A stretch of 8,663 nucleotides of DNA from a virus (taxonomy: Duplodnaviria > Heunggongvirae > Uroviricota > Caudoviricetes), in the IMG/VR virus record IMGVR_UViG_2671180854_000003, positions 1-8,663 of that record. The stretch is one strand, 5' to 3'. The notes beneath the pieces were generated by a model. The model did not search any database and was not told the origin of the DNA. It worked only from the letters and a program-made list of their open reading frames with translations. Of the stretch, positions 1-8,663 are shown one piece after another (position 1 is the stretch's first letter; the number at the start of each line of letters is the position of its first letter). The translations under genes and the position numbers were made by a program.

Positions 1-411
1 ATGCCTGCCCCCGTCGTCCTGATCCTTGCGGCCGGGCGTGGAGAGCGCTTTCTCGCCTCCGGGGGAAATACCCATAAGTGTATCGGCTGGCGTCAGTCCC
101 CGGAGGTTGCGCCTTATCGCTGGCCATTTGAAGAAAACGGGAGAACTTTCGACCTTGCGATTGAACCGCAGATTACGACTAATGATCTGCGTCTGATGTT
201 GAGGCTGGCTCTTGCCGGCGGAGGAATAACAATTGCCACTCAGGAAACTTTCAGGCCATATATTGAAAGCGGTAAGCTTGTATCGCTGCTTGATGACTTT
301 CTTCCACAATTTCCGGGCTTCTATCTGTATTTCCCACAGCGTCGCAATATTGCACCAAAGCTCCGCGCCCTGATTGACTACGTCAAAGAATGGCGGCAGC
401 AATTGGCTTAA
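1..411 (+). CDS. yagP: LysR-family transcriptional regulator, C-terminal effector-binding portion only (136 aa; no N-terminal HTH in window); probably a truncated gene or pseudogene
   Basis: ORF at window edge; C-terminal tail ...IAPKLRALIDYVKEW is typical of LysR-family regulators; size and position beside a tRNA-Thr fragment match my memory of the yagP locus in E. coli K-12 (not verified). Confidence 0.55.
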   Translation: MPAPVVLILAAGRGERFLASGGNTHKCIGWRQSPEVAPYRWPFEENGRTFDLAIEPQITTNDLRLMLRLALAGGGITIATQETFRPYIESGKLVSLLDDFLPQFPGFYLYFPQRRNIAPKLRALIDYVKEWRQQLA

Positions 412-537
412 ATGTCTGCACCTGCACTGCCTGATGTCAGAACAGTATTTTGATGAATTGCCAAGGTTACAATGGCACAAATACGGCACAGGAGGAAACG
501 TGGTGTATTTAAATATGGGGTAACTCTTTGATTTTAA

Positions 538-583
538 TGATGCCGATAATAGGAGTCGAACCTACGACCTTCGCATTACGAAT
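538..583 (-). pseudogene. Partial tRNA-Thr(CGU) copy: anticodon loop through acceptor 3' end, no 5' half; integration-site (att) remnant of a thrW-targeting element
   Basis: Reverse complement of 541-583 reads AATTCGTAATGCGAAGGTCGTAGGTTCGACTCCTATTATCGGCA, which matches the 3' half of E. coli tRNA-Thr(CGU) as I remember it (anticodon CGT, T-loop GGTTCGACTCC); sequence diverges completely beyond 584; the CCA end reads TCA (one mismatch). Confidence 0.75.
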
Positions 584-1023
584 TATAAGAATCCGATTCT
601 AATTCAAAGCATTACCCCATCAACACTGCGCTCACACGTCCCGCCACATCAAAACATGTAAAGCCTTGCAAGCCATTGCGAGGCCTTATGTGTCTCAGTT
701 TTGTCCCACCTTGTATTACGACTTGCATAGCCAATGAAGATAAATGTGACGACAAACGGCGCAGCAGTCTTCTTTTCTTTCATACTTTCCCACACCCGGC
801 TTGCATACCTTTCTGCCATAACTATAGTGAATGTCTGTTATGAGAGAGAGACGGAAGTCCCCCACTTTATAAGTCAGTTAATGGAGAAATTACTAGCAGA
901 CGGTGTACTTGGAACAAGTTAATGGATTATAATGATAAATTAAGCATCGTTATGATTTGAAATACTTAATTATGCTAATATTGATGGAAGCAATGAATTT
1001 TAAGACATGCATAGAGTTATAAA

Positions 1024-3834
1024 ATGATAAATTTAAATCCACTTTCTTTTTCTGAATATGACTTGAACGAAATATTGAATGCCAGTCAAGATAATAAGTT
1101 AGTTCTTTTTATTGGTGCTGGTTTTTCTAAATTCAGCGAAACGGAATTAATAAAAATACCAACCTGGAGGGAGTTAATAAATGAGCTAAAAGACGACTTA
1201 GGATTGTCTGAAGAAAATGATTATTTAAAAATAGCCCAACTTTACTTTCTTCAATACGGACAAAACTCTTATGTTAAAAAAGTCAAATCAATAATTAGAG
1301 ATTTGAAACCAAGTTTTTTTCATAAGATGCTATTTGAATTAAACCCCCACTATATAATTACAACCAACTGGGATAGTTTGCTTGAAAAAACTGCACAAGA
1401 CATAGGATTGGCTTATGATTTAGTTAGTTCTGACGTGGACCTGGCACAAAGTCATTTGGACAAGAAAATTATAAAGATGCATGGGGATTTTCGACAGAAT
1501 AATTTTGTTTTTAAAGAGGATGATTACTTACAGTACAGCCAAAATTTTCCACTTATCGAAAATTTTATAAAAGGAATATTCTCAACAAACACTGTTGTGT
1601 TTTTAGGATACTCTTATAGTGATTATGATTTAAAACAGATTGTTTCATGGGTTACAACTATATCAAAAGCAACACCAAGAAAATATTTGCTCCAGAAAAA
1701 TCATGATGCAGCCCAGGCTCTTTACTTAAGAAATCATGGGATATCCTTGTTGACACCGATGAATACTGACATTAGCTATCATGATCTTTATTCAAAATTT
1801 TTCAGTGATTTCAAGCTTGTTAAAAACCAAGATGAGTTTATAAAGAGGACCCTGATCTATACTGAGTCAAAGGTAAAAAAAATAGAAGATGACCTGAGAA
1901 TGTCTGATTTTGATAAAAATAAATTGAAGAATGATATTCAATGTATTGTAACAAAAAAAATAAATAAATATGTTGATAGCAAACTAAAAGCATTAACACA
2001 ATACAAAGTATTGCTCCCTGAGCAGATCAGTAAAAAATTAACTAATAGTACCATTGATTATGATAAGTCTGGGGTTAAACTAACCTCCCACAATAATATT
2101 TTGACGACTGATTATGACGAGTATAGCAGGAAAATAAATAGCATATACCTTAATGACATTTTGAGTAAAAATACTCACTTAAAAAAGACATTCTCATCTA
2201 TTTTGGAAAAGGCATTTATAAATACAGTTAGTTATGACTCGAAACTGTATGAGGTGATTAGTTCTTCAGAATTAGAGTCTGAGCTATACAATAAGATTTC
2301 TTTCGCTTATTCAAAGGATAATGCTGAAATACTTCTTATTAACAAGGAATATGGCAAACTTCTCGATATTCTTATTTCGAAAGTAAAGCTTCATCTTAAT
2401 GAGAGAAACTATATTCTCGCCACCATTCACATGTCTAATTTTGATTATGCTTACAGGATGTTGAAGTCGGATTTACACTGTAACGGTAAGGACATTGATG
2501 AAGATTGTAAATCAATAATGGAAAGCCATACTCCATTTGAGTTTAAAAGTAAAACAATTGATTTTCCACGGGGGGTGCAAAGTGAGCTACAAGAATTAGT
2601 AAAGATGCTTGAATTTAATGAAATATACAAAGCTTACTATCGATTTGACGTTGAATCGAAGAAGAATTTAGGGTACTCACAAATAAGAAAGAGTGGTGGA
2701 ATAGCATTTTCCAATGATGAATTTAAAACAAGAGCGAAACTGTACCCTTATGTGTATTTCATTTTAGGCAACGAAATTTTAATTGAAGAATATAAAGAGG
2801 TTAAACAATTTTTCGAATTTAATATTCTTAGTAGCCTCGAACACTATCTATGCGAAGAGATATTCTATGTTAATAGAATCGATCTATTTATGTTAATAAA
2901 ATACTGCGAGACAGAAAAACTCAAAAAATTTTTAAGTAAGGTAATAAAAGACAAAATAATAATCAGCACCAGCAAACTTGACAAAAGAGAAGTTCACCAT
3001 ATTAAGAAATATTTACTCAACTCTCTCGAAAACATATGCAACCTGATTAGGTTGAAAAATAAAAATTTTATTCATACCACTTCAATAGATCGATGGACCA
3101 ATAATTTATTGATTATATTAGGATGTGTTCCGTGGAGTTCAAACCAGTTAAAGAAAATAATAAATGGTTTGCTTCCTTTGTTAGAAGGCAGAACTAATAA
3201 CATAAATATTTATGAAAACATACATAATCTTCTAGCTGTGAATGAGTTTTTGTATCAAAAATCCCATGATGATATGTTAAAAATCCTGGATGTAATACTT
3301 ATAAAAATCAATACAGGAGAGTTAAATGGTTATGACCAGCATGTAATTAACTCCAATATCTTACGAAACATTTACATATTATCAGAGAATCATAATTACG
3401 AATACAAAAACACTGAACTATTAACATTAGCGTTAACAAAAATACAATTATTTGATGATAAGTGGAAAAGATCCATCACTAAGAGTTTATTATTGAACAT
3501 CAAAAGGATTGGCTCTCCTGAGGTCGTTGACATTATAGACAAGTTTATTAACAGTAATATTTTAAACCTACCACTGGCAACAGTAAGCGATATTATGGAA
3601 TGTTTGCATTTAGTCGCAAGCGGATGTGCCATGCCTGATCAATTTCTTGAGGTTATTAACAAATTTGTTTCTGAAAACATCCCGAATAAATTAGGCGAGT
3701 TAGATTTCATTACAGCTGGTGTAGAAAGTGATTTTCCTAACTTAATTAAAAGCCTTATAAAGGATAGAGGCTTTGTTGAATTTCAAGACACATTGGACAT
3801 ATTCAATGAACGAATGCAATCTCTAAAAAAATAA
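1024..3834 (+). CDS. SIR2-like (sirtuin/NADase-type) domain protein, 936 aa: N-terminal SIR2_2-like domain (~aa 1-300) plus ~630-aa C-terminal region of unknown function; candidate single-gene anti-phage defence protein (DSR-like architecture)
   Basis: Long uninterrupted ORF; N-terminal motifs LVLFIGAGFS (aa 26-35), ITTNWD (Asn115, nt 1366-1368), KMHGD (His153, nt 1480-1482), VVFLGYSYSD match the layout of SIR2-type NAD-binding/catalytic motifs in ThsA/DSR-type defence proteins; no Walker A P-loop seen; gene is far more AT-rich (~25-33% GC on sampled lines) than flanks (~50-55%). Confidence 0.8.
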   Translation: MINLNPLSFSEYDLNEILNASQDNKLVLFIGAGFSKFSETELIKIPTWRELINELKDDLGLSEENDYLKIAQLYFLQYGQNSYVKKVKSIIRDLKPSFFHKMLFELNPHYIITTNWDSLLEKTAQDIGLAYDLVSSDVDLAQSHLDKKIIKMHGDFRQNNFVFKEDDYLQYSQNFPLIENFIKGIFSTNTVVFLGYSYSDYDLKQIVSWVTTISKATPRKYLLQKNHDAAQALYLRNHGISLLTPMNTDISYHDLYSKFFSDFKLVKNQDEFIKRTLIYTESKVKKIEDDLRMSDFDKNKLKNDIQCIVTKKINKYVDSKLKALTQYKVLLPEQISKKLTNSTIDYDKSGVKLTSHNNILTTDYDEYSRKINSIYLNDILSKNTHLKKTFSSILEKAFINTVSYDSKLYEVISSSELESELYNKISFAYSKDNAEILLINKEYGKLLDILISKVKLHLNERNYILATIHMSNFDYAYRMLKSDLHCNGKDIDEDCKSIMESHTPFEFKSKTIDFPRGVQSELQELVKMLEFNEIYKAYYRFDVESKKNLGYSQIRKSGGIAFSNDEFKTRAKLYPYVYFILGNEILIEEYKEVKQFFEFNILSSLEHYLCEEIFYVNRIDLFMLIKYCETEKLKKFLSKVIKDKIIISTSKLDKREVHHIKKYLLNSLENICNLIRLKNKNFIHTTSIDRWTNNLLIILGCVPWSSNQLKKIINGLLPLLEGRTNNINIYENIHNLLAVNEFLYQKSHDDMLKILDVILIKINTGELNGYDQHVINSNILRNIYILSENHNYEYKNTELLTLALTKIQLFDDKWKRSITKSLLLNIKRIGSPEVVDIIDKFINSNILNLPLATVSDIMECLHLVASGCAMPDQFLEVINKFVSENIPNKLGELDFITAGVESDFPNLIKSLIKDRGFVEFQDTLDIFNERMQSLKK

Positions 3835-3845
3835 AGCCACTGAGA

Positions 3846-3892
3846 TAGGGCTGCTCTCTGTCAATTACCGCTCTTGGCACATAGCAGCCCTA
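3846..3892. repeat. Perfect 10-bp inverted repeat (TAGGGCTGCT ... AGCAGCCCTA) with 27-nt spacer, in the gap between the convergent SIR2 gene and pin
   Basis: Read directly: 3846-3855 is the reverse complement of 3883-3892. Confidence 0.6.
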
Positions 3893-4054
3893 GAAATGGT
3901 GACGTATAGTCATAGATGGTCGGTGACAGGAGATGCAAATCATCTCATACAAAAATACGTAAAATCAATAACGGCTAGAAATTATTCAACACTCGCACTA
4001 TCGACATTTCACCAGCTAACCGTAGCACGTTCTTGCATACGACGTGCTACGGTT

Positions 4055-4609
4055 TCATTTATCTCCAACCGGAAACTTCTTATACAGTGTCGATATACCA
4101 ACATCATAGATGATCGCCACCTTCTGGCGAGGAACGCCTGATGCAATTAATCGCCCGGCCTGCGCCCATTGTTCTGGTGTAAGTTTGGGACGACGTCCCC
4201 CAATTCGTCCCTGTGCGCGAGCAGCTTCCAGTCCAGCTTTTGTTCGTTCAACAATCAGTTCTCGTTCCATTTCAGCCAGGGCACCCATCACATGAAAGAA
4301 AAAACGCCCCATCGGTGTGCTGGTATCAATAGCATCCGTCAGGCTGCGAAAATTAACGCCACGTTCGCGCAACTCCTCAACCAGAATGACCAGATGCCGC
4401 ATACTACGCCCCAGCCGATCCAGTTTCCAGACCACCAGAGTGTCACCTGCCGATAATGTCCTGAGCAGTTTTTTCAGTCCCGGTCTTTCGGACTTCGTAC
4501 CGCTTATCTTGTCTTCAAAAATCAGTTCACATCCTACACAGTTCAACGCATTACGTTGTAGATCGGTGTTCTGGTCATTTGTTGATACGCGAACATAGCC
4601 AATAAGCAT
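4055..4609 (-). CDS. pin: Serine-recombinase DNA invertase, Pin/Gin/Hin/Cin family (184 aa from ATG at 4609)
   Basis: Translation MLIGYVRVSTNDQNTDLQRNAL...VVWKLDRLGRSM...GRIGGRRPKL is near-identical in pattern to Pin/Gin invertases (catalytic Ser in YVRVST motif, C-terminal HTH); the ORF-track start at 4645 adds a 12-aa extension that homologues lack. Confidence 0.9.
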   Translation of the reverse strand: MLIGYVRVSTNDQNTDLQRNALNCVGCELIFEDKISGTKSERPGLKKLLRTLSAGDTLVVWKLDRLGRSMRHLVILVEELRERGVNFRSLTDAIDTSTPMGRFFFHVMGALAEMERELIVERTKAGLEAARAQGRIGGRRPKLTPEQWAQAGRLIASGVPRQKVAIIYDVGISTLYKKFPVGDK

Positions 4610-4635
4610 GGTAGATCCCCCAGGTAAAAGCAGGA

Positions 4636-4971
4636 ATGATGCCATTTGCTCGTTATTTCTGCATTTTCATAAACCTTGGTTTTGGAGAAGGTGCTAACTG
4701 GGTTATGTTACCTGGAGGAATGATAATTCAGCGTGTTTATCTTGGATTTCCTGTCGGCACCAATGTAAGACACATAACTTTCCCCCGGTCGTTTACAACA
4801 ACGAACTATTCCATCTCAATTAACTGGAATGATATCGGTACTGTAACAACTGAAACACAATCGCCAGCAAATGTGGCGGTTGTTCATCAAACAAAATCAT
4901 TAACAGGGGCCAGCATCTGGCAGGCAGGTCCCGGGGGATTTAATGTGGACATTATAGCGGTGGGGTATTGA
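4636..4971 (+). CDS. Alternative tail-fibre C-terminal cassette (Sv'-type), currently in the silent orientation; would be fused to the constant stf 5' part after inversion
   Basis: ORF encodes NLGFGEGA across the crossover site, mirroring ENLGLGEGA at the second site inside stf; followed directly by a tfa gene; the ATG at 4636 lies outside the invertible segment and is probably not a real start. Confidence 0.5.
   Translation: MMPFARYFCIFINLGFGEGANWVMLPGGMIIQRVYLGFPVGTNVRHITFPRSFTTTNYSISINWNDIGTVTTETQSPANVAVVHQTKSLTGASIWQAGPGGFNVDIIAVGY
4664..4689. other. Invertase crossover site (gix/hix-like), invertase-proximal: TTTTCATAAACCTTGGTTTTGGAGAA
   Basis: Quasi-palindromic 26-mer with AAACC-NN-GGTTT core resembling Hin/Gin recombination sites; lies ~55 bp upstream of the pin start. 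Confidence 0.7.
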
Positions 4972-5966: not shown

Positions 5967-6712
5967 TATTTAGCCCTCACCAGAAAGTTAAATGCAATAT
6001 TTCGCGGTCTGACAGCAACAAAATTCACACCATCACCCACAGAGTTACTGGTGAAATTAAATCGTGAAAATCCTGGCTGATTTCCGGCGATGCCATCATG
6101 AAAGTTAATTGCGTGTCCCGCACCTTCGCCTATATTCCCGGCAAACTGAGAAAAGTTTGTAGCTGCCTGCCAGCTTAATAATTCGCGACCACCGTCTGCA
6201 CCTCGCCCGTCATCCCAGATACGAATGAAATCACCGCGGGCTTCAGGTAATACCAGCGAAGGAAACACTTTCGCCAGCACAGGATAATCAGTGGCAGAGA
6301 ATTTCGCGCCGTTGAACTTCAAAAACACCATACTGGACCAGCTGTCGATTACAGTATTTGGCATTGCAGCGGACGGCCAGAAGAACGGAACGCCAATAGC
6401 TGGAGCACCTTCTCCCAAACCAAGGTTTTCGAGAGCTGTTTTCACCGTGCCATCCGATTTGATATCGCCAAACGGATTCTTGCGGCTTAACAGCAGCGCA
6501 CGAAGCGCGGTAAGCAGCTGGTCGTGCCTCTCCTTCTCCAGGCTGGCACCGGATGCCTCCACCACGCTACAAAGCTCTTCCTGCAACATGTCAAAGTAGT
6601 CATCATCCAGATCGGTGGCAGGCGTGCCGGTCTGGGGGTTGCCACGGGTAAAACCGTTCTTACCCGCGCCGAACTTATCCTTCTGCGCGGTTTTCGTGTC
6701 TATGCGATGCAT
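5966..6712 (-). CDS. Short side tail fibre protein (248 aa): constant N-terminal part (outside the invertible segment) fused to variable C-terminal part (inside it)
   Basis: N-terminus [20 protein letters not shown]... and glycine-rich body typical of e14/Mu-type tail fibres; crossover site lies inside the ORF at aa ~93-101; followed by a translationally coupled tfa. Confidence 0.85.
6410..6435. other. Invertase crossover site (gix/hix-like), distal, inside stf: TTCTCCCAAACCAAGGTTTTCGAGAG
   Basis: Its reverse complement matches the 4664-4689 site at 21 of 26 positions; central dinucleotide AA versus TT shows the two sites are in inverted orientation. Confidence 0.7.
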
Positions 6713-6715
6713 GGA

Positions 6716-7300
6716 TTACTCCGGATATTTAAAAATTACGTAGGTATGAGACGGACAGAGTTTGTTAAGCACACATTCGACAACGGTATCGCCCCAGATA
6801 CGCAGTGCGGAATCACAGGGATCGCCACATGTCATCCAGGTGGTGTTTGTGGCGGCTGGCATGTTGACCTGCCAGTAATACCGCCATTCCGGCGCATTCA
6901 CCGCGTCAGTACAGGCCGATGAGCAGGTGAACGTGCTTTTGTCGTATCGCGTGATGGTAGCGTCTGGTCTGCCCAGGGCAGCAAGCTGTGCAAGATAAAA
7001 ATTCTCGTTGATGCCGCCCGCCAGGTTAACCTTCGCATCCAGCCGTTGCTGACGCTGGCGAAGGGTCTGTGTCCCTGCGGGAATACATTCATCCGGCAGA
7101 CCGCACAGACGCTCCCAGCGGTTTATCAGTTCGGTGGTGGTGCGCGGATCCAGCTCCCGCATCAGGGCATCCGCACGCTGATGAACGCGGGTTAATGACG
7201 GTGCCGCACCGGCAATCGACGGATCGCTGGCTGACCACGCCGGACCGGGGGGCAACAGTGCCGACAACAGACGGATGTAATCATCGTTTGTCACGTCCAT
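6716..7300 (-). CDS. ymfQ: Phage tail/baseplate protein, YmfQ/DUF2313 family (Mu gp48 / P2 gpI-like position), 194 aa
   Basis: 194-aa ORF immediately upstream of stf with a 3-nt gap (translational coupling); sequence beginning [22 protein letters not shown] recalls the e14 YmfQ family (from memory). Confidence 0.7.
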
Positions 7301-7449
7301 GAAATCGTCCCCAGTACCGCCAGTTCATTTTTTGCAATGGAGATATTGTCTGCCGGTGCAAGCAACTGATGGCTGTATTCCCCGTTCGCACCGGAAATCG
7401 CCTCACTGATACGCGATACCTTCAGTTCTCCCTGCGGATATGGGCAGCT
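7291..7449 (-). pseudogene. Probable 3' remnant (~52 codons) of a baseplate-J-like tail gene, truncated at its 5' side
   Basis: Open frame on the minus strand from the Rz stop down to a TGA at 7291-7293 that overlaps the ymfQ start by 8 nt (typical tail-operon overlap); no start codon or 5' part present; identity as J-like is inferred from gene order only. Confidence 0.3.
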
Positions 7450-7911
7450 CTATCTGCACTGCTCATTAATATACTTCTGGGTTCCTTCCAGTTGTTTTTG
7501 CATAGTGATCAGCCTCTCTCTGAGGGTGAAATAATCCCGTTCAGCGGTGTCTGCCAGTCGGGGGGAGGCTGCATTATCCACGCCGGAGGCGGTGGTGGCT
7601 TCACGCACTGACTGACAGACTGCTTTGATGTGCAACCGACGACGACCAGCGGCAACATCATCACGCAGAGCATCATTTTCAGCTTTCGCATCAGCTAACT
7701 CCTTCGTGTATTTTGCATCGAGCGCAGCAACATCACGCTGACGCATCTGCATGTCAGTAATTGCCGCGTTCGCCAGCTTCAGTTCTTTGGCATTTTTGTC
7801 GCGCTGGGCTTTATAGGTAATGGCGTTATCACGGTAATGATTAACAGCCCATGACAGGCAGACGATGATGCAGATAACCAGAGCGGAGATAATCGCGGTT
7901 ACTCTGTTCAT
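7450..7911 (-). CDS. Rz: Rz-type i-spanin (153 aa from ATG at 7911)
   Basis: Translation [41 protein letters not shown]... closely matches lambda Rz as I recall it; start overlaps the endolysin stop (ATGA). Confidence 0.9.
7509..7691 (-). CDS. Rz1: Rz1-type o-spanin lipoprotein (60 aa), embedded in the +1 frame inside Rz
   Basis: Translation [26 protein letters not shown]...PPPPPAW... with lipobox (VVGC) and proline-rich region, as in lambda Rz1. Confidence 0.85.
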
Positions 7912-8405
7912 TGCTGACCCCACAAACAGATTTCACGCTCAATCTCACGACGAGTCATGAGACCTTTCCATTGCTTACCGCCAGCATATGTCCAGCGACG
8001 TAACTGATCACATGCGCCTTTGATATCGCCCTGGTTTATTTTGCGAAGAAGCGTCGATGTTCTGAAATTGCCAGCACCCACGTTGTAAACGAATGAGTAA
8101 AGAGCGCCGCGCGTTGTTTCCGGTATATCGACTTCGATGTATGGGTTAATTTGTCTGGCGACAGTGGCAAGGTCTTTATTCAAGAGTGCTTTGCATTCTG
8201 CTTTGGTATACGTTTTACCGAGCATGATGTCTTTTCCTGTATGCCCGTGACATACGGTCCATACACCAACAATATCTTTGTATGGTATGTAGCTGACACC
8301 TTCCAGACCATCGTTACCACTTGGGCCAGTGATTAACACTGATGCTATAGCAATTGCTCCGCCACCAATAGCAGCAGCAACGGCTTTTCGTAATGATGGA
8401 GGCAT
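7908..8405 (-). CDS. SAR-type endolysin (phage lysozyme, P21 R / DLP12 RrrD-like), 165 aa
   Basis: N-terminal signal-anchor-release segment [30 protein letters not shown] followed by lysozyme body; near-identical to P21-type endolysins from memory; start overlaps holin stop (TAATG). Confidence 0.9.
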
Positions 8406-8540
8406 TATTCACCTCTCGCAGCCTTGCGCTTATCTTCTTTAATCTTGAAATAAAGGTTTGTCAGGTACGTCAGCAGGCCAAATACCAGGCTACCCAGCAC
8501 ACCTATTGCTGCCCACTGTGAGGGCGTGACTTTATCGAGC
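8405..8540 (-). pseudogene. Pinholin (S21/EssD-like) 3' remnant; N-terminal ~25 codons replaced by an IS insertion
   Basis: Minus-strand translation ...[44 protein letters not shown] matches the C-terminal two-thirds of P21-type pinholins; similarity ends abruptly at ~8540 where an IS terminal sequence begins. Confidence 0.75.
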
Positions 8541-8663
8541 TGAACCGCCCCGGGAATCCTGGAGACTAAACTTCCTGAGAAAGAGGTAAACAGGATGACT
8601 AAAAATACTCGTTTTTCCCCCGAAGTCCGTCAACGGGCAGTCCGTATGGTTCTGGAAAGTCAG
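8541..8663 (+). mobile_element. Left end of an IS3-family insertion sequence (IS629/IS1203-like), continuing beyond the window
   Basis: Terminal sequence TGAACCGCCCCGGG... starts exactly where holin similarity stops; transposase OrfA start follows 54 bp downstream. Confidence 0.7.
8595..8663 (+). CDS. IS3-family transposase OrfA, N-terminal 23 codons (partial, runs off window)
   Basis: Translation [23 protein letters not shown] matches the N-terminus of IS629/IS1203-type OrfA as I recall it; AGGTAAACAGG Shine-Dalgarno-like sequence upstream. Confidence 0.75.

What the first reader, a model, noticed from the sequence alone, without database searches (positions are those of the whole stretch)
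1024..3834. Stand-alone 936-aa SIR2-domain protein: candidate single-gene NAD+-depleting anti-phage system
Its N-terminal ~300 aa carry the ordered motifs of the SIR2_2 (defence-associated sirtuin) fold: a glycine-rich NAD-binding stretch LVLFIGAGFS (aa 26-35), a putative catalytic Asn in ITTNWD (Asn115, nt 1366-1368), a putative catalytic His in KMHGD (His153, nt 1480-1482) and VVFLGYSYSD. The Asn/His spacing resembles the catalytic pair of Thoeris ThsA and DSR-type NADases. The gene stands alone (no HerA, Argonaute, TIR or STAND partner in the window), which fits a DSR1/DSR2-like single-polypeptide architecture. It is strongly AT-rich relative to its flanks and sits at the edge of a prophage beside the invertase, the position that mcrA occupies next to pinE in prophage e14. 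The family assignment beyond 'SIR2-like domain' is inference, and it may already exist in databases as a hypothetical protein.
Basis: partly seen in the sequence, partly recalled or inferred. Interest (0 to 1): 0.85.

Follow-up and report, generated by a model that had tools for sequence, protein, structure and literature searches.

The report
DSR2-type anti-phage sirtuin in prophage
The 936-aa gene is real and is a distant, full-length relative of the Bacillus anti-phage protein DSR2, which destroys the cell's NAD+ when it detects a phage protein; it is a new member of a known kind, carried as swappable cargo at the end of an E. coli prophage.

Summary

- **Sequence:** a family profile aligns with DSR2 residues 29-763 (E = 1e-59).
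- **Active site:** S35, N115, D117 and H153 align with DSR2 S51, N133, D135 and H171 and are invariant in 66 homologs.
- **Single gene:** there is no conserved partner gene in seven genomic contexts.
- **Location:** the gene fills a ~3-kb variable slot (about 859-3867) between the prophage attachment site and pin. Other strains carry a RES NAD+ phosphorylase, a TrlF ATPase or a GIY-YIG nuclease there.

RefSeq already holds it as "SIR2 family protein" (WP_000609167.1, two substitutions away). The Dsr2 models in PADLOC and NCBIfam miss it, but they also miss the solved DSR2. The trigger, the oligomeric state and the NADase activity are inferred, not shown.

The parts
1024..3834 (+). DSR2-like defence-associated sirtuin gene (936 aa plus stop codon)
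   Evidence: ORF scan. Same CDS in RefSeq, WP_000609167.1, differing by F98L and T511I. Full-length homologs of 915-950 aa occur across Gammaproteobacteria and Neisseria.
1024..1833 (+). SIR2 NADase effector domain (aa 1 to ~270), with pocket residues S35, N115, D117 and H153
1834..2247 (+). Linker subdomain of MID (aa ~271-408): long helices plus two beta-hairpin modules (aa 342-355 and 399-410)
   Evidence: Secondary structure of the model. The profile alignment runs continuously through the DSR2 Linker, residues 299-408.
2248..2619 (+). Helical-bundle subdomain of MID (aa ~409-532)
   Evidence: The profile alignment covers the DSR2 helical bundle, residues 409-547. The model is all-alpha here with pLDDT about 90.
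2620..3831 (+). HEAT-like alpha-solenoid C-terminal domain (aa ~533-936), the putative phage-protein sensor
859..1023 (+). Cassette-specific upstream region with a candidate promoter (-10 TATAAT at 928-933, weak -35 TGTACT at 904-909, 18-nt spacer)
   Evidence: Homology to strains with other cargo stops at ~843-858. The promoter is a pattern match only; the standard scan found none on the + strand here.
585..858 (.). Conserved left arm of the prophage end, between the attachment-site remnant and the cargo slot
   Evidence: Shared at 94-98% identity with strains carrying RES, TrlF or AraC/GIY-YIG cargo. Homology to K-12 stops at ~584.
537..584 (-). tRNA-like 3' fragment marking the prophage/chromosome boundary next to yagP
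   Evidence: Identical in K-12, where the annotated end of prophage CP4-6 maps to this junction beside yagP. Neither ARAGORN nor Rfam calls it a tRNA.
3868..4054 (.). Start of the conserved right arm leading into pin; the right junction of the cargo slot is at ~3866-3869
   Evidence: Homology with the RES and TrlF strains resumes at 3868 and 3870.
4055..4645 (-). pin serine invertase, the conserved neighbour of the cargo slot
   Evidence: ORF scan. RefSeq names it pinE, site-specific DNA recombinase.

Best explanation
The gene encodes a single-polypeptide abortive-infection sensor and effector of the DSR2 type.

Shown here:
- An N-terminal SIR2 domain with an intact NAD+ pocket (S35, N115, D117, H153).
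- A Linker plus helical-bundle adaptor.
- A C-terminal HEAT-like solenoid.
- The whole chain superposes on B. subtilis DSR2.

Inferred by homology with DSR2:
- The protein rests as an inactive head-to-head tetramer held together by its SIR2 and MID domains.
- During infection, a newly made phage protein is captured by the C-terminal solenoid. In DSR2 that protein is monomeric tail-tube protein. Here the trigger is unknown, and a structural protein is the default guess.
- The conformational change passes through MID to the SIR2 pocket.
- NAD+ is hydrolysed to ADP-ribose and nicotinamide, and the infected cell stops supporting phage growth.

The gene is carried as exchangeable cargo at the attachment-site end of a prophage. 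It therefore most likely protects the lysogen against superinfecting phages.
For: - **Full-length fold:** the AlphaFold model has pLDDT 86.9 and pTM 0.78 and was made without templates. The top 44 Foldseek PDB hits are all DSR2 chains (E = 6e-22, TM 0.64/0.63, ~940-970 columns).
- **Sequence profile:** the family profile against the PDB gives E = 1e-59 in one stretch covering window aa 14-739 and DSR2 29-763.
- **SIR2 closeness:** the SIR2 domain scores 124 bits to DSR2, against 55 bits to ThsA and 53 bits to KomC.
- **Catalytic residues:** they align with DSR2 N133 and H171, which are needed for defence, and with S51 and D135. All four are invariant in 66 homologs.
- **No partner gene:** none is conserved in E. 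coli, Enterobacter, Aeromonas, Pectobacterium, Acinetobacter, Neisseria or Avibacterium.
- **Mobile and defence context:** the gene occurs in a prophage nin region, a relaxase island, an integrase island, and next to GmrSD.
- **Variable slot:** other strains hold a RES NAD+ phosphorylase, a TrlF ATPase or a GIY-YIG nuclease at the same place.
- **Patchy distribution:** 14 of 5,426 complete E. coli genomes carry it.
- **Uneven conservation:** SIR2 shows 60% mean pairwise identity and the remaining domains 31-34%.
- **Viral contigs:** IMG/VR viral contigs of ~41 kb carry the gene at one end.
Against: - No experiment covers this protein or its clade. I found no paper naming it.
- Overall identity to DSR2 is only 17%. 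Pairwise BLASTP detects the SIR2 domain alone.
- The last ~200 aa have no detectable sequence similarity to DSR2, so the trigger cannot be transferred from DSR2.
- PADLOC lists no Dsr2 hit, and the NCBIfam Dsr2 equivalog scores 67 bits against a cutoff of 1400. The solved DSR2 fails these models too.
- Oligomeric state, NADase activation and the abortive phenotype could not be tested.
- DSR1, another SIR2 single-gene system, depleted NAD+ only transiently and did not arrest growth, so the outcome for the cell may differ.
Confidence: 0.8

Rival explanations
1. It has the same DSR2 chassis but a different trigger. The solenoid would sense something other than a tail-tube protein, for example a capsid, portal or sheath protein or a non-structural phage product. 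The outcome might be transient NAD+ lowering and not cell death.
For: The distal CTD (aa ~740-936) has no sequence similarity to DSR2. The non-SIR2 domains diverge quickly within the family, at 31-34% mean pairwise identity. DSR2 recognition is allele-specific even among SPbeta-like phages. Dsr1 sensors recognise major capsid proteins. DSR1 gave only transient depletion.
Against: The only characterised protein with this fold uses tail-tube protein, and the solenoid geometry is conserved. Nothing here points to any particular alternative trigger.
Confidence: 0.45
2. It is an orphan Thoeris ThsA-like effector that a signalling nucleotide activates, not a phage protein.
Against: The ThsA match covers only profile positions 11-229 of 478, which is the SIR2 half, and there is no SLOG/STALD domain. 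No TIR ThsB gene is present in the window or in six other neighbourhoods. The solved DSR2 gives the same ThsA hits. The C-terminal 660 aa match DSR2 MID-CTD.
Confidence: 0.03
3. It is a SIR2-STAND (Avs5-like) or Dsr1-like sensor with a different sensor class.
Against: There is no Walker A or B motif, and no NTPase family appears in Pfam. No Dsr1 model hits in PADLOC or NCBIfam. E. coli Dsr1 is a different protein, WP_029488749.1, with a bilobed TPR sensor. DSR2 outranks every other structure at full length.
Confidence: 0.03
4. It is not a defence gene. It would be a regulatory sirtuin (protein deacylase or ADP-ribosyltransferase), or a prophage-maintenance toxin that does not respond to phage.
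For: No functional data exist. The SIR2 fold supports several chemistries.
Confidence: 0.05

Closest known systems
Bacillus subtilis 29R DSR2 (Garb et al.; PDB 8K98, 8WY8, 8YG1 and others)
   Same: Both are single polypeptides with SIR2, Linker, helical bundle and HEAT-like solenoid in the same order. They superpose at full length (TM 0.64), and profile homology reaches DSR2 residue 763. The pocket residues are identical (S, N, D, H). Both are carried as stand-alone genes.
   Different: This protein has 936 aa against 1005. Overall identity is 17%, and 31% within the SIR2 domain. Its family has a ~16-position longer helical segment after SIR2. The distal solenoid has no sequence similarity to DSR2. 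The host is Gram-negative, and the trigger and any phage inhibitor are unknown.
Dsr2 as modelled by NCBIfam NF041819 (~1215 profile positions)
   Same: It has an N-terminal SIR2 domain, which matches this protein at E = 9e-19 over aa 14-211.
   Different: The score is 67 bits against a cutoff of 1400, and nothing matches beyond the SIR2 domain. The solved B. subtilis DSR2 does not hit this model at all. The model therefore describes a narrower, different clade.
DSR1 / E. coli Dsr1 (WP_029488749.1)
   Same: It is a single-gene SIR2 NADase defence protein with a helical-repeat sensor.
   Different: The Dsr1 sensor is a bilobed TPR domain shared with Avs7 and recognises major capsid proteins. No Dsr1 model hits this protein.
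Thoeris ThsA
   Different: ThsA has a SLOG sensor for a signalling nucleotide and needs the TIR protein ThsB. Both are absent here.
mcrA next to pinE in cryptic prophage e14 of E. coli K-12
   Same: The position is the same: a defence gene between the Pin invertase and the prophage attachment-site end, downstream of the ymfQ, tail-fibre and tfa genes.
   Different: The protein is unrelated (a type IV restriction enzyme). mcrA is co-directional with pinE, whereas this gene is convergent with pin.

Membership tests
DSR2 (sensu B. subtilis DSR2, solved structures) | N-terminal SIR2 domain with catalytic Asn and His (N133, H171) plus S51 and D135 | tested here: met
   N115, H153, S35 and D117 align with these residues and are invariant in 66 homologs. 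SIR2_2 E = 3.4e-24.
DSR2 (sensu B. subtilis DSR2, solved structures) | MID adaptor made of a mixed alpha/beta Linker and a helical bundle | tested here: met
   The profile alignment is continuous through DSR2 residues 299-547. The model shows helices plus two beta-hairpins and then a helical bundle.
DSR2 (sensu B. subtilis DSR2, solved structures) | C-terminal HEAT-like alpha-solenoid sensor domain | tested here: met
DSR2 (sensu B. subtilis DSR2, solved structures) | Single-gene system with no obligatory partner | tested here: met
   Seven different neighbourhoods share no gene.
DSR2 (sensu B. subtilis DSR2, solved structures) | Head-to-head tetramer | not testable with these tools
   Only a monomer could be predicted.
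DSR2 (sensu B. subtilis DSR2, solved structures) | Activation by phage tail-tube protein, inhibition by DSAD1, and NAD+ depletion with abortive infection | not testable with these tools
   This needs phage challenge and NAD+ measurement. The mechanism is known for B. subtilis DSR2 only.
Dsr2 equivalog (NCBIfam NF041819) / PADLOC Dsr2 | Whole-protein score above the curated cutoff | tested here: not met
   67 bits against 1400, SIR2 part only. PADLOC lists no Dsr2 hit. Control: solved B. subtilis DSR2 residues 29-763 also fail both.
DSR1 | Match to Dsr1 models and an Avs7-like bilobed TPR sensor | tested here: not met
   No Dsr1 hit at E <= 1 in PADLOC or NCBIfam. The best structural matches are to DSR2.
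Thoeris ThsA | SLOG/STALD ligand-binding domain and a TIR ThsB partner | tested here: not met
   The ThsA models match only their SIR2 half. There is no TIR gene nearby.
Avs5 (SIR2-STAND) | STAND NTPase module with Walker A and B motifs | tested here: not met
   No Walker motifs and no NTPase Pfam family.
SIR2-HerA / SIR2-pAgo | Adjacent HerA or Argonaute gene | tested here: not met
   Neither gene is in the window or in the homolog neighbourhoods.
Canonical sirtuin deacylases (Pfam SIR2, PF02146) | PF02146 match and a Cys4 zinc module | tested here: not met

The most novel reading that the evidence does not exclude
This Gram-negative clade may use the DSR2 scaffold to recognise a coliphage protein other than a siphovirus tail-tube protein. 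It would then be the first E. coli-native DSR2 model with a new trigger. In addition, the slot between the attachment site and pin in these e14/SfV-like prophages may be a systematic defence hotspot. Its other, uncharacterised cargos (the TrlF AAA-like ATPase, and the LEM-3-like GIY-YIG nuclease with AraC) would then be new anti-phage systems.
Probability: 0.35. Interest if true: 0.55.

Novelty: new member of a known kind. Interest (0 to 1): 0.4.

Why it matters
DSR2 has been studied in a single Bacillus protein with a single phage family. This clade of ~920-950-aa proteins is spread across Enterobacterales, Aeromonas, Acinetobacter, Neisseria and Pasteurellaceae. It keeps the whole DSR2 architecture, yet it is labelled only "SIR2 family protein", and the Dsr2 models I could run do not detect it. 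Recognising it would improve defence-system annotation in Gram-negative genomes. It would also give a DSR2 representative that can be tested in E. coli with well-characterised coliphage panels, which makes the question of what the solenoid senses directly approachable. Finally, the locus shows a cleanly bounded cargo slot next to pin that could be mined for further defence genes.

Tried and rejected
- I searched the protein database with the DSR2 SIR2 fragment to retrieve full-length DSR2 and its family. Only proteins under 480 aa came back. I therefore rebuilt DSR2 residues 29-763 from a printed alignment and could not run a reciprocal profile-profile comparison of the distal CTD.
- An exhaustive search with aa 416-936 looked for the sensor fused to other effectors. 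It found none. Hits of odd length were N-terminally truncated fragments.
- ARAGORN and Rfam on the tRNA-like fragment gave no call. The boundary was set by alignment to K-12 instead.
- The standard promoter and terminator scan found no more sites than shuffled sequence and no + strand promoter upstream of the gene. A relaxed scan gave only a pattern-level candidate.
- I looked for repeats flanking the cargo junctions and found none.
- Literature searches for 'DSR2-like' and for the RefSeq accession returned nothing. The E. coli defence-island survey does not mention this locus.
- Deposited phage genomes do not carry the gene.
- I considered and rejected the ThsA, Avs5, Dsr1, SIR2-HerA, SIR2-pAgo and canonical sirtuin assignments (see the membership tests).
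Full report
**Observation.** The ORF scan lists one long ORF at 1024..3834 on the + strand, with an ATG start and 936 aa. RefSeq annotates the same CDS in E. coli UMNK88 and in porcine ETEC strains as WP_000609167.1, "SIR2 family protein". The window's protein differs from it by F98L and T511I. The gene has 30.3% GC against 47-57% for its neighbours. Pfam SIR2_2 matches aa 111-242 at E = 3.4e-24.

**What the protein is.** Family libraries recognise only the N-terminal ~240 aa.
- PADLOC gives the SIR2 half of ThsA models (E = 5.5e-29) and weak hits to candidate families.
- The NCBIfam Dsr2 equivalog scores 67 bits against a cutoff of 1400.

Against the sequences of solved structures, the best match is B. 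subtilis DSR2. It scores E = 6.6e-35 over aa 14-273, well ahead of ThsA and KomC. That alignment places N115 on DSR2 N133 and H153 on H171.

I collected homologs and aligned 66 of them (A1). They are full-length proteins of 915-950 aa from Enterobacterales, Aeromonas, Acinetobacter, Neisseria, Gilliamella and Avibacterium. An AlphaFold model built from that alignment, without templates, is confident: mean pLDDT 86.9 and pTM 0.78. It shows an alpha/beta SIR2 core, long linker helices with two small beta-hairpin modules, and then about 500 aa of alpha-solenoid.

Three results tie the whole chain to DSR2.
- Foldseek against the PDB returns DSR2 cryo-EM chains as the top 44 hits: E = 6e-22, TM 0.64/0.63, about 940-970 aligned columns and 17% identity. 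A 659-residue DSR2 chain (apparently lacking the SIR2 domain) still scores E = 4.6e-14.
- A profile of A1 aligns with DSR2 in one stretch at E = 1e-59, covering window aa 14-739 and DSR2 29-763.

Using the published DSR2 domain limits (SIR2 1-298, Linker 299-408, helical bundle 409-547, HEAT-like 548-1005), the window protein divides into four parts:
- SIR2, aa 1 to ~270
- Linker, aa ~271-408
- helical bundle, aa ~409-532
- HEAT-like solenoid, aa ~533-936

Beyond aa ~739 only the fold is conserved, not the sequence. The DSR2 pocket residues S51, N133, D135 and H171 correspond to S35, N115, D117 and H153, and all four are invariant in A1.

**Control on the family models.** I rebuilt DSR2 residues 29-763 from the printed alignment, and the residue counts agreed with the numbering. 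I then scanned that fragment. It hits no Dsr2 model in PADLOC or NCBIfam, and it gives the same ThsA and PDC-S25 hits as the window protein. Those models therefore describe a different, narrower clade. Missing their cutoffs is not evidence against membership of the family of the solved DSR2. Pairwise BLASTP finds only the SIR2 domain, at 31% identity over 245 aa. That is why routine annotation stops at "SIR2 family protein".

**Single gene, mobile, patchy.** Neighbourhoods of homologs share no gene.

| Organism | Context of the homolog |
|---|---|
| Enterobacter | lambdoid prophage, between replication gene P and DinI/RusA |
| Aeromonas | housekeeping genes |
| Pectobacterium | relaxase island with a YobI-type ATPase |
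| Acinetobacter | integrase island next to a PHP/AAA_23 ATPase |
| Neisseria | housekeeping genes |
| Avibacterium | next to GmrSD and an IS element |

The protein has no Walker A/B motif and no CxxC zinc module. An exhaustive search with aa 416-936 found only 80 representative clusters. Nearly all are ~890-950 aa with the region at the same offset, and those of odd length are truncated fragments. So I found this sensor region only in this architecture. Within the family, SIR2 is much better conserved (60% mean pairwise identity) than the other domains (31-34%). In E. coli the gene is in 14 of 5,426 complete genomes, always chromosomal and single copy. No deposited phage genome carries it, but IMG/VR viral contigs of ~41 kb hold it at one end.

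**Locus.** The left flank is the chromosomal paoD and yagP remnant. Homology to K-12 ends at window ~584, just after a tRNA-like 3' fragment. In K-12, the annotated end of prophage CP4-6 falls at the corresponding position beside yagP. From ~585 to ~843-858 the sequence is shared with strains that carry other cargo, and homology resumes at ~3868-3870 and runs into pin. The variable slot is therefore about 859-3867, and here it holds only this gene. Other strains carry different cargo in the same slot:
- a RES family NAD+ phosphorylase with hypothetical genes
- a TrlF family AAA-like ATPase
- AraC, IS1 and a LEM-3-like GIY-YIG protein
- the SIR2 gene together with GIY-YIG and an acyltransferase

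The junctions carry no flanking repeats. The orientation differs, because this gene is convergent with pin. A preprint reports serine recombinases as markers of defence genes in Bacillota, which fits the general pattern.

**Mechanism.** The fold, the domain order, the intact pocket, the lack of a partner gene and the mobile, defence-rich context are shown here. The rest is inferred from DSR2. That protein is an inactive head-to-head tetramer. Monomeric tail-tube protein binds the C-terminal domain. The change passes through MID to SIR2, and NAD+ is hydrolysed, which aborts infection. I put 0.8 on the claim that this is a phage-triggered NADase of the DSR2 type. I put well under one half on the trigger being a tail-tube protein, because the distal solenoid has no sequence similarity to DSR2 and DSR2 recognition is allele-specific.

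**Rivals.** ThsA-like, Avs5-like, Dsr1-like and canonical sirtuin readings each fail a defining feature that I tested.

**Novelty and score.** This is a new, divergent member of a known kind. A specialist would not be surprised that a stand-alone SIR2 protein in a prophage slot is DSR2-like. The useful points are practical:
- It belongs to a widespread Gram-negative clade that the Dsr2 models tested here (PADLOC, NCBIfam) miss.
- It offers an E. coli-native route to ask what the DSR2 solenoid can sense.
- It sits in a well-bounded cargo slot worth mining.

I found no paper that names or tests this protein. The searchable library is incomplete, so I cannot exclude one. Interest is 0.4.

Noticed in passing
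window 4671-4695 and 6404-6428: A 25-nt inverted repeat (96% complementary) brackets a ~1.7-kb segment holding alternative tail-fibre C-termini and two tail-fibre assembly genes. This is the Pin-invertible segment next to pin (4055-4645, - strand).
   Followed up: partly
window 7441-8663: A lambdoid lysis cassette (rzpD with the embedded Rz1 ORF, and rrrD lysozyme; the essD annotation appears under the match near the window end) follows ymfQ (6716-7300) directly. In UMNK88, baseplate and tail genes follow ymfQ. No complete E. coli genome matches the window contiguously, so the resident prophage is a mosaic and probably defective.
   Followed up: partly
window 537-584 (- strand): A tRNA-like 3' fragment is shared with K-12, where the annotated end of cryptic prophage CP4-6 maps to this junction beside yagP. 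It marks the attachment-site boundary. Neither ARAGORN nor Rfam calls it a tRNA.
   Followed up: yes
L003 2498-3877; L004 2446-5199; L005 2573-5691; L006 5743-8136: The same slot between the attachment site and pin holds other cargo in other strains: a RES family NAD+ phosphorylase, a 917-aa TrlF family AAA-like ATPase, AraC with IS1 and a LEM-3-like GIY-YIG protein, or GIY-YIG with an acyltransferase beside the SIR2 gene. Several of these are uncharacterised candidate defence genes.
   Followed up: partly
L012 10618-13332: In Acinetobacter, the SIR2 homolog lies in an integrase-bounded island next to a 904-aa PHP_C/AAA_23 ATPase. This resembles the TrlF-type ATPase that occupies the E. coli slot in another strain.
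   Followed up: no
window 3846-3855 and 3883-3892: A perfect 10-bp inverted repeat straddles the right cargo junction (~3868) between the convergent SIR2 gene and pin. It has no T-run, so it is not a canonical intrinsic terminator. Only its right arm belongs to the conserved prophage arm.
   Followed up: partly
window 1-411: The 136-aa ORF listed at 1-411 is not a gene. It merges the last codons of paoD with the yagP LysR-family pseudogene, which RefSeq annotates at 73-411.
   Followed up: yes
PADLOC and NCBIfam models versus B. subtilis DSR2 residues 29-763: The structurally characterised DSR2 is not recognised by any 'Dsr2' model in PADLOC v2.0.0 or by NCBIfam NF041819. The name DSR2 therefore covers at least two clades that these models do not connect.
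   Followed up: partly
L007 7136-8350: In strain EH09-18-41, the SIR2 cassette lies next to a tyrosine integrase of a second, satellite-like element (TOPRIM/DUF927 primase, Ash family and AntA/AntB genes), not next to yagP. The cassette therefore travels in more than one context within E. coli.
   Followed up: no
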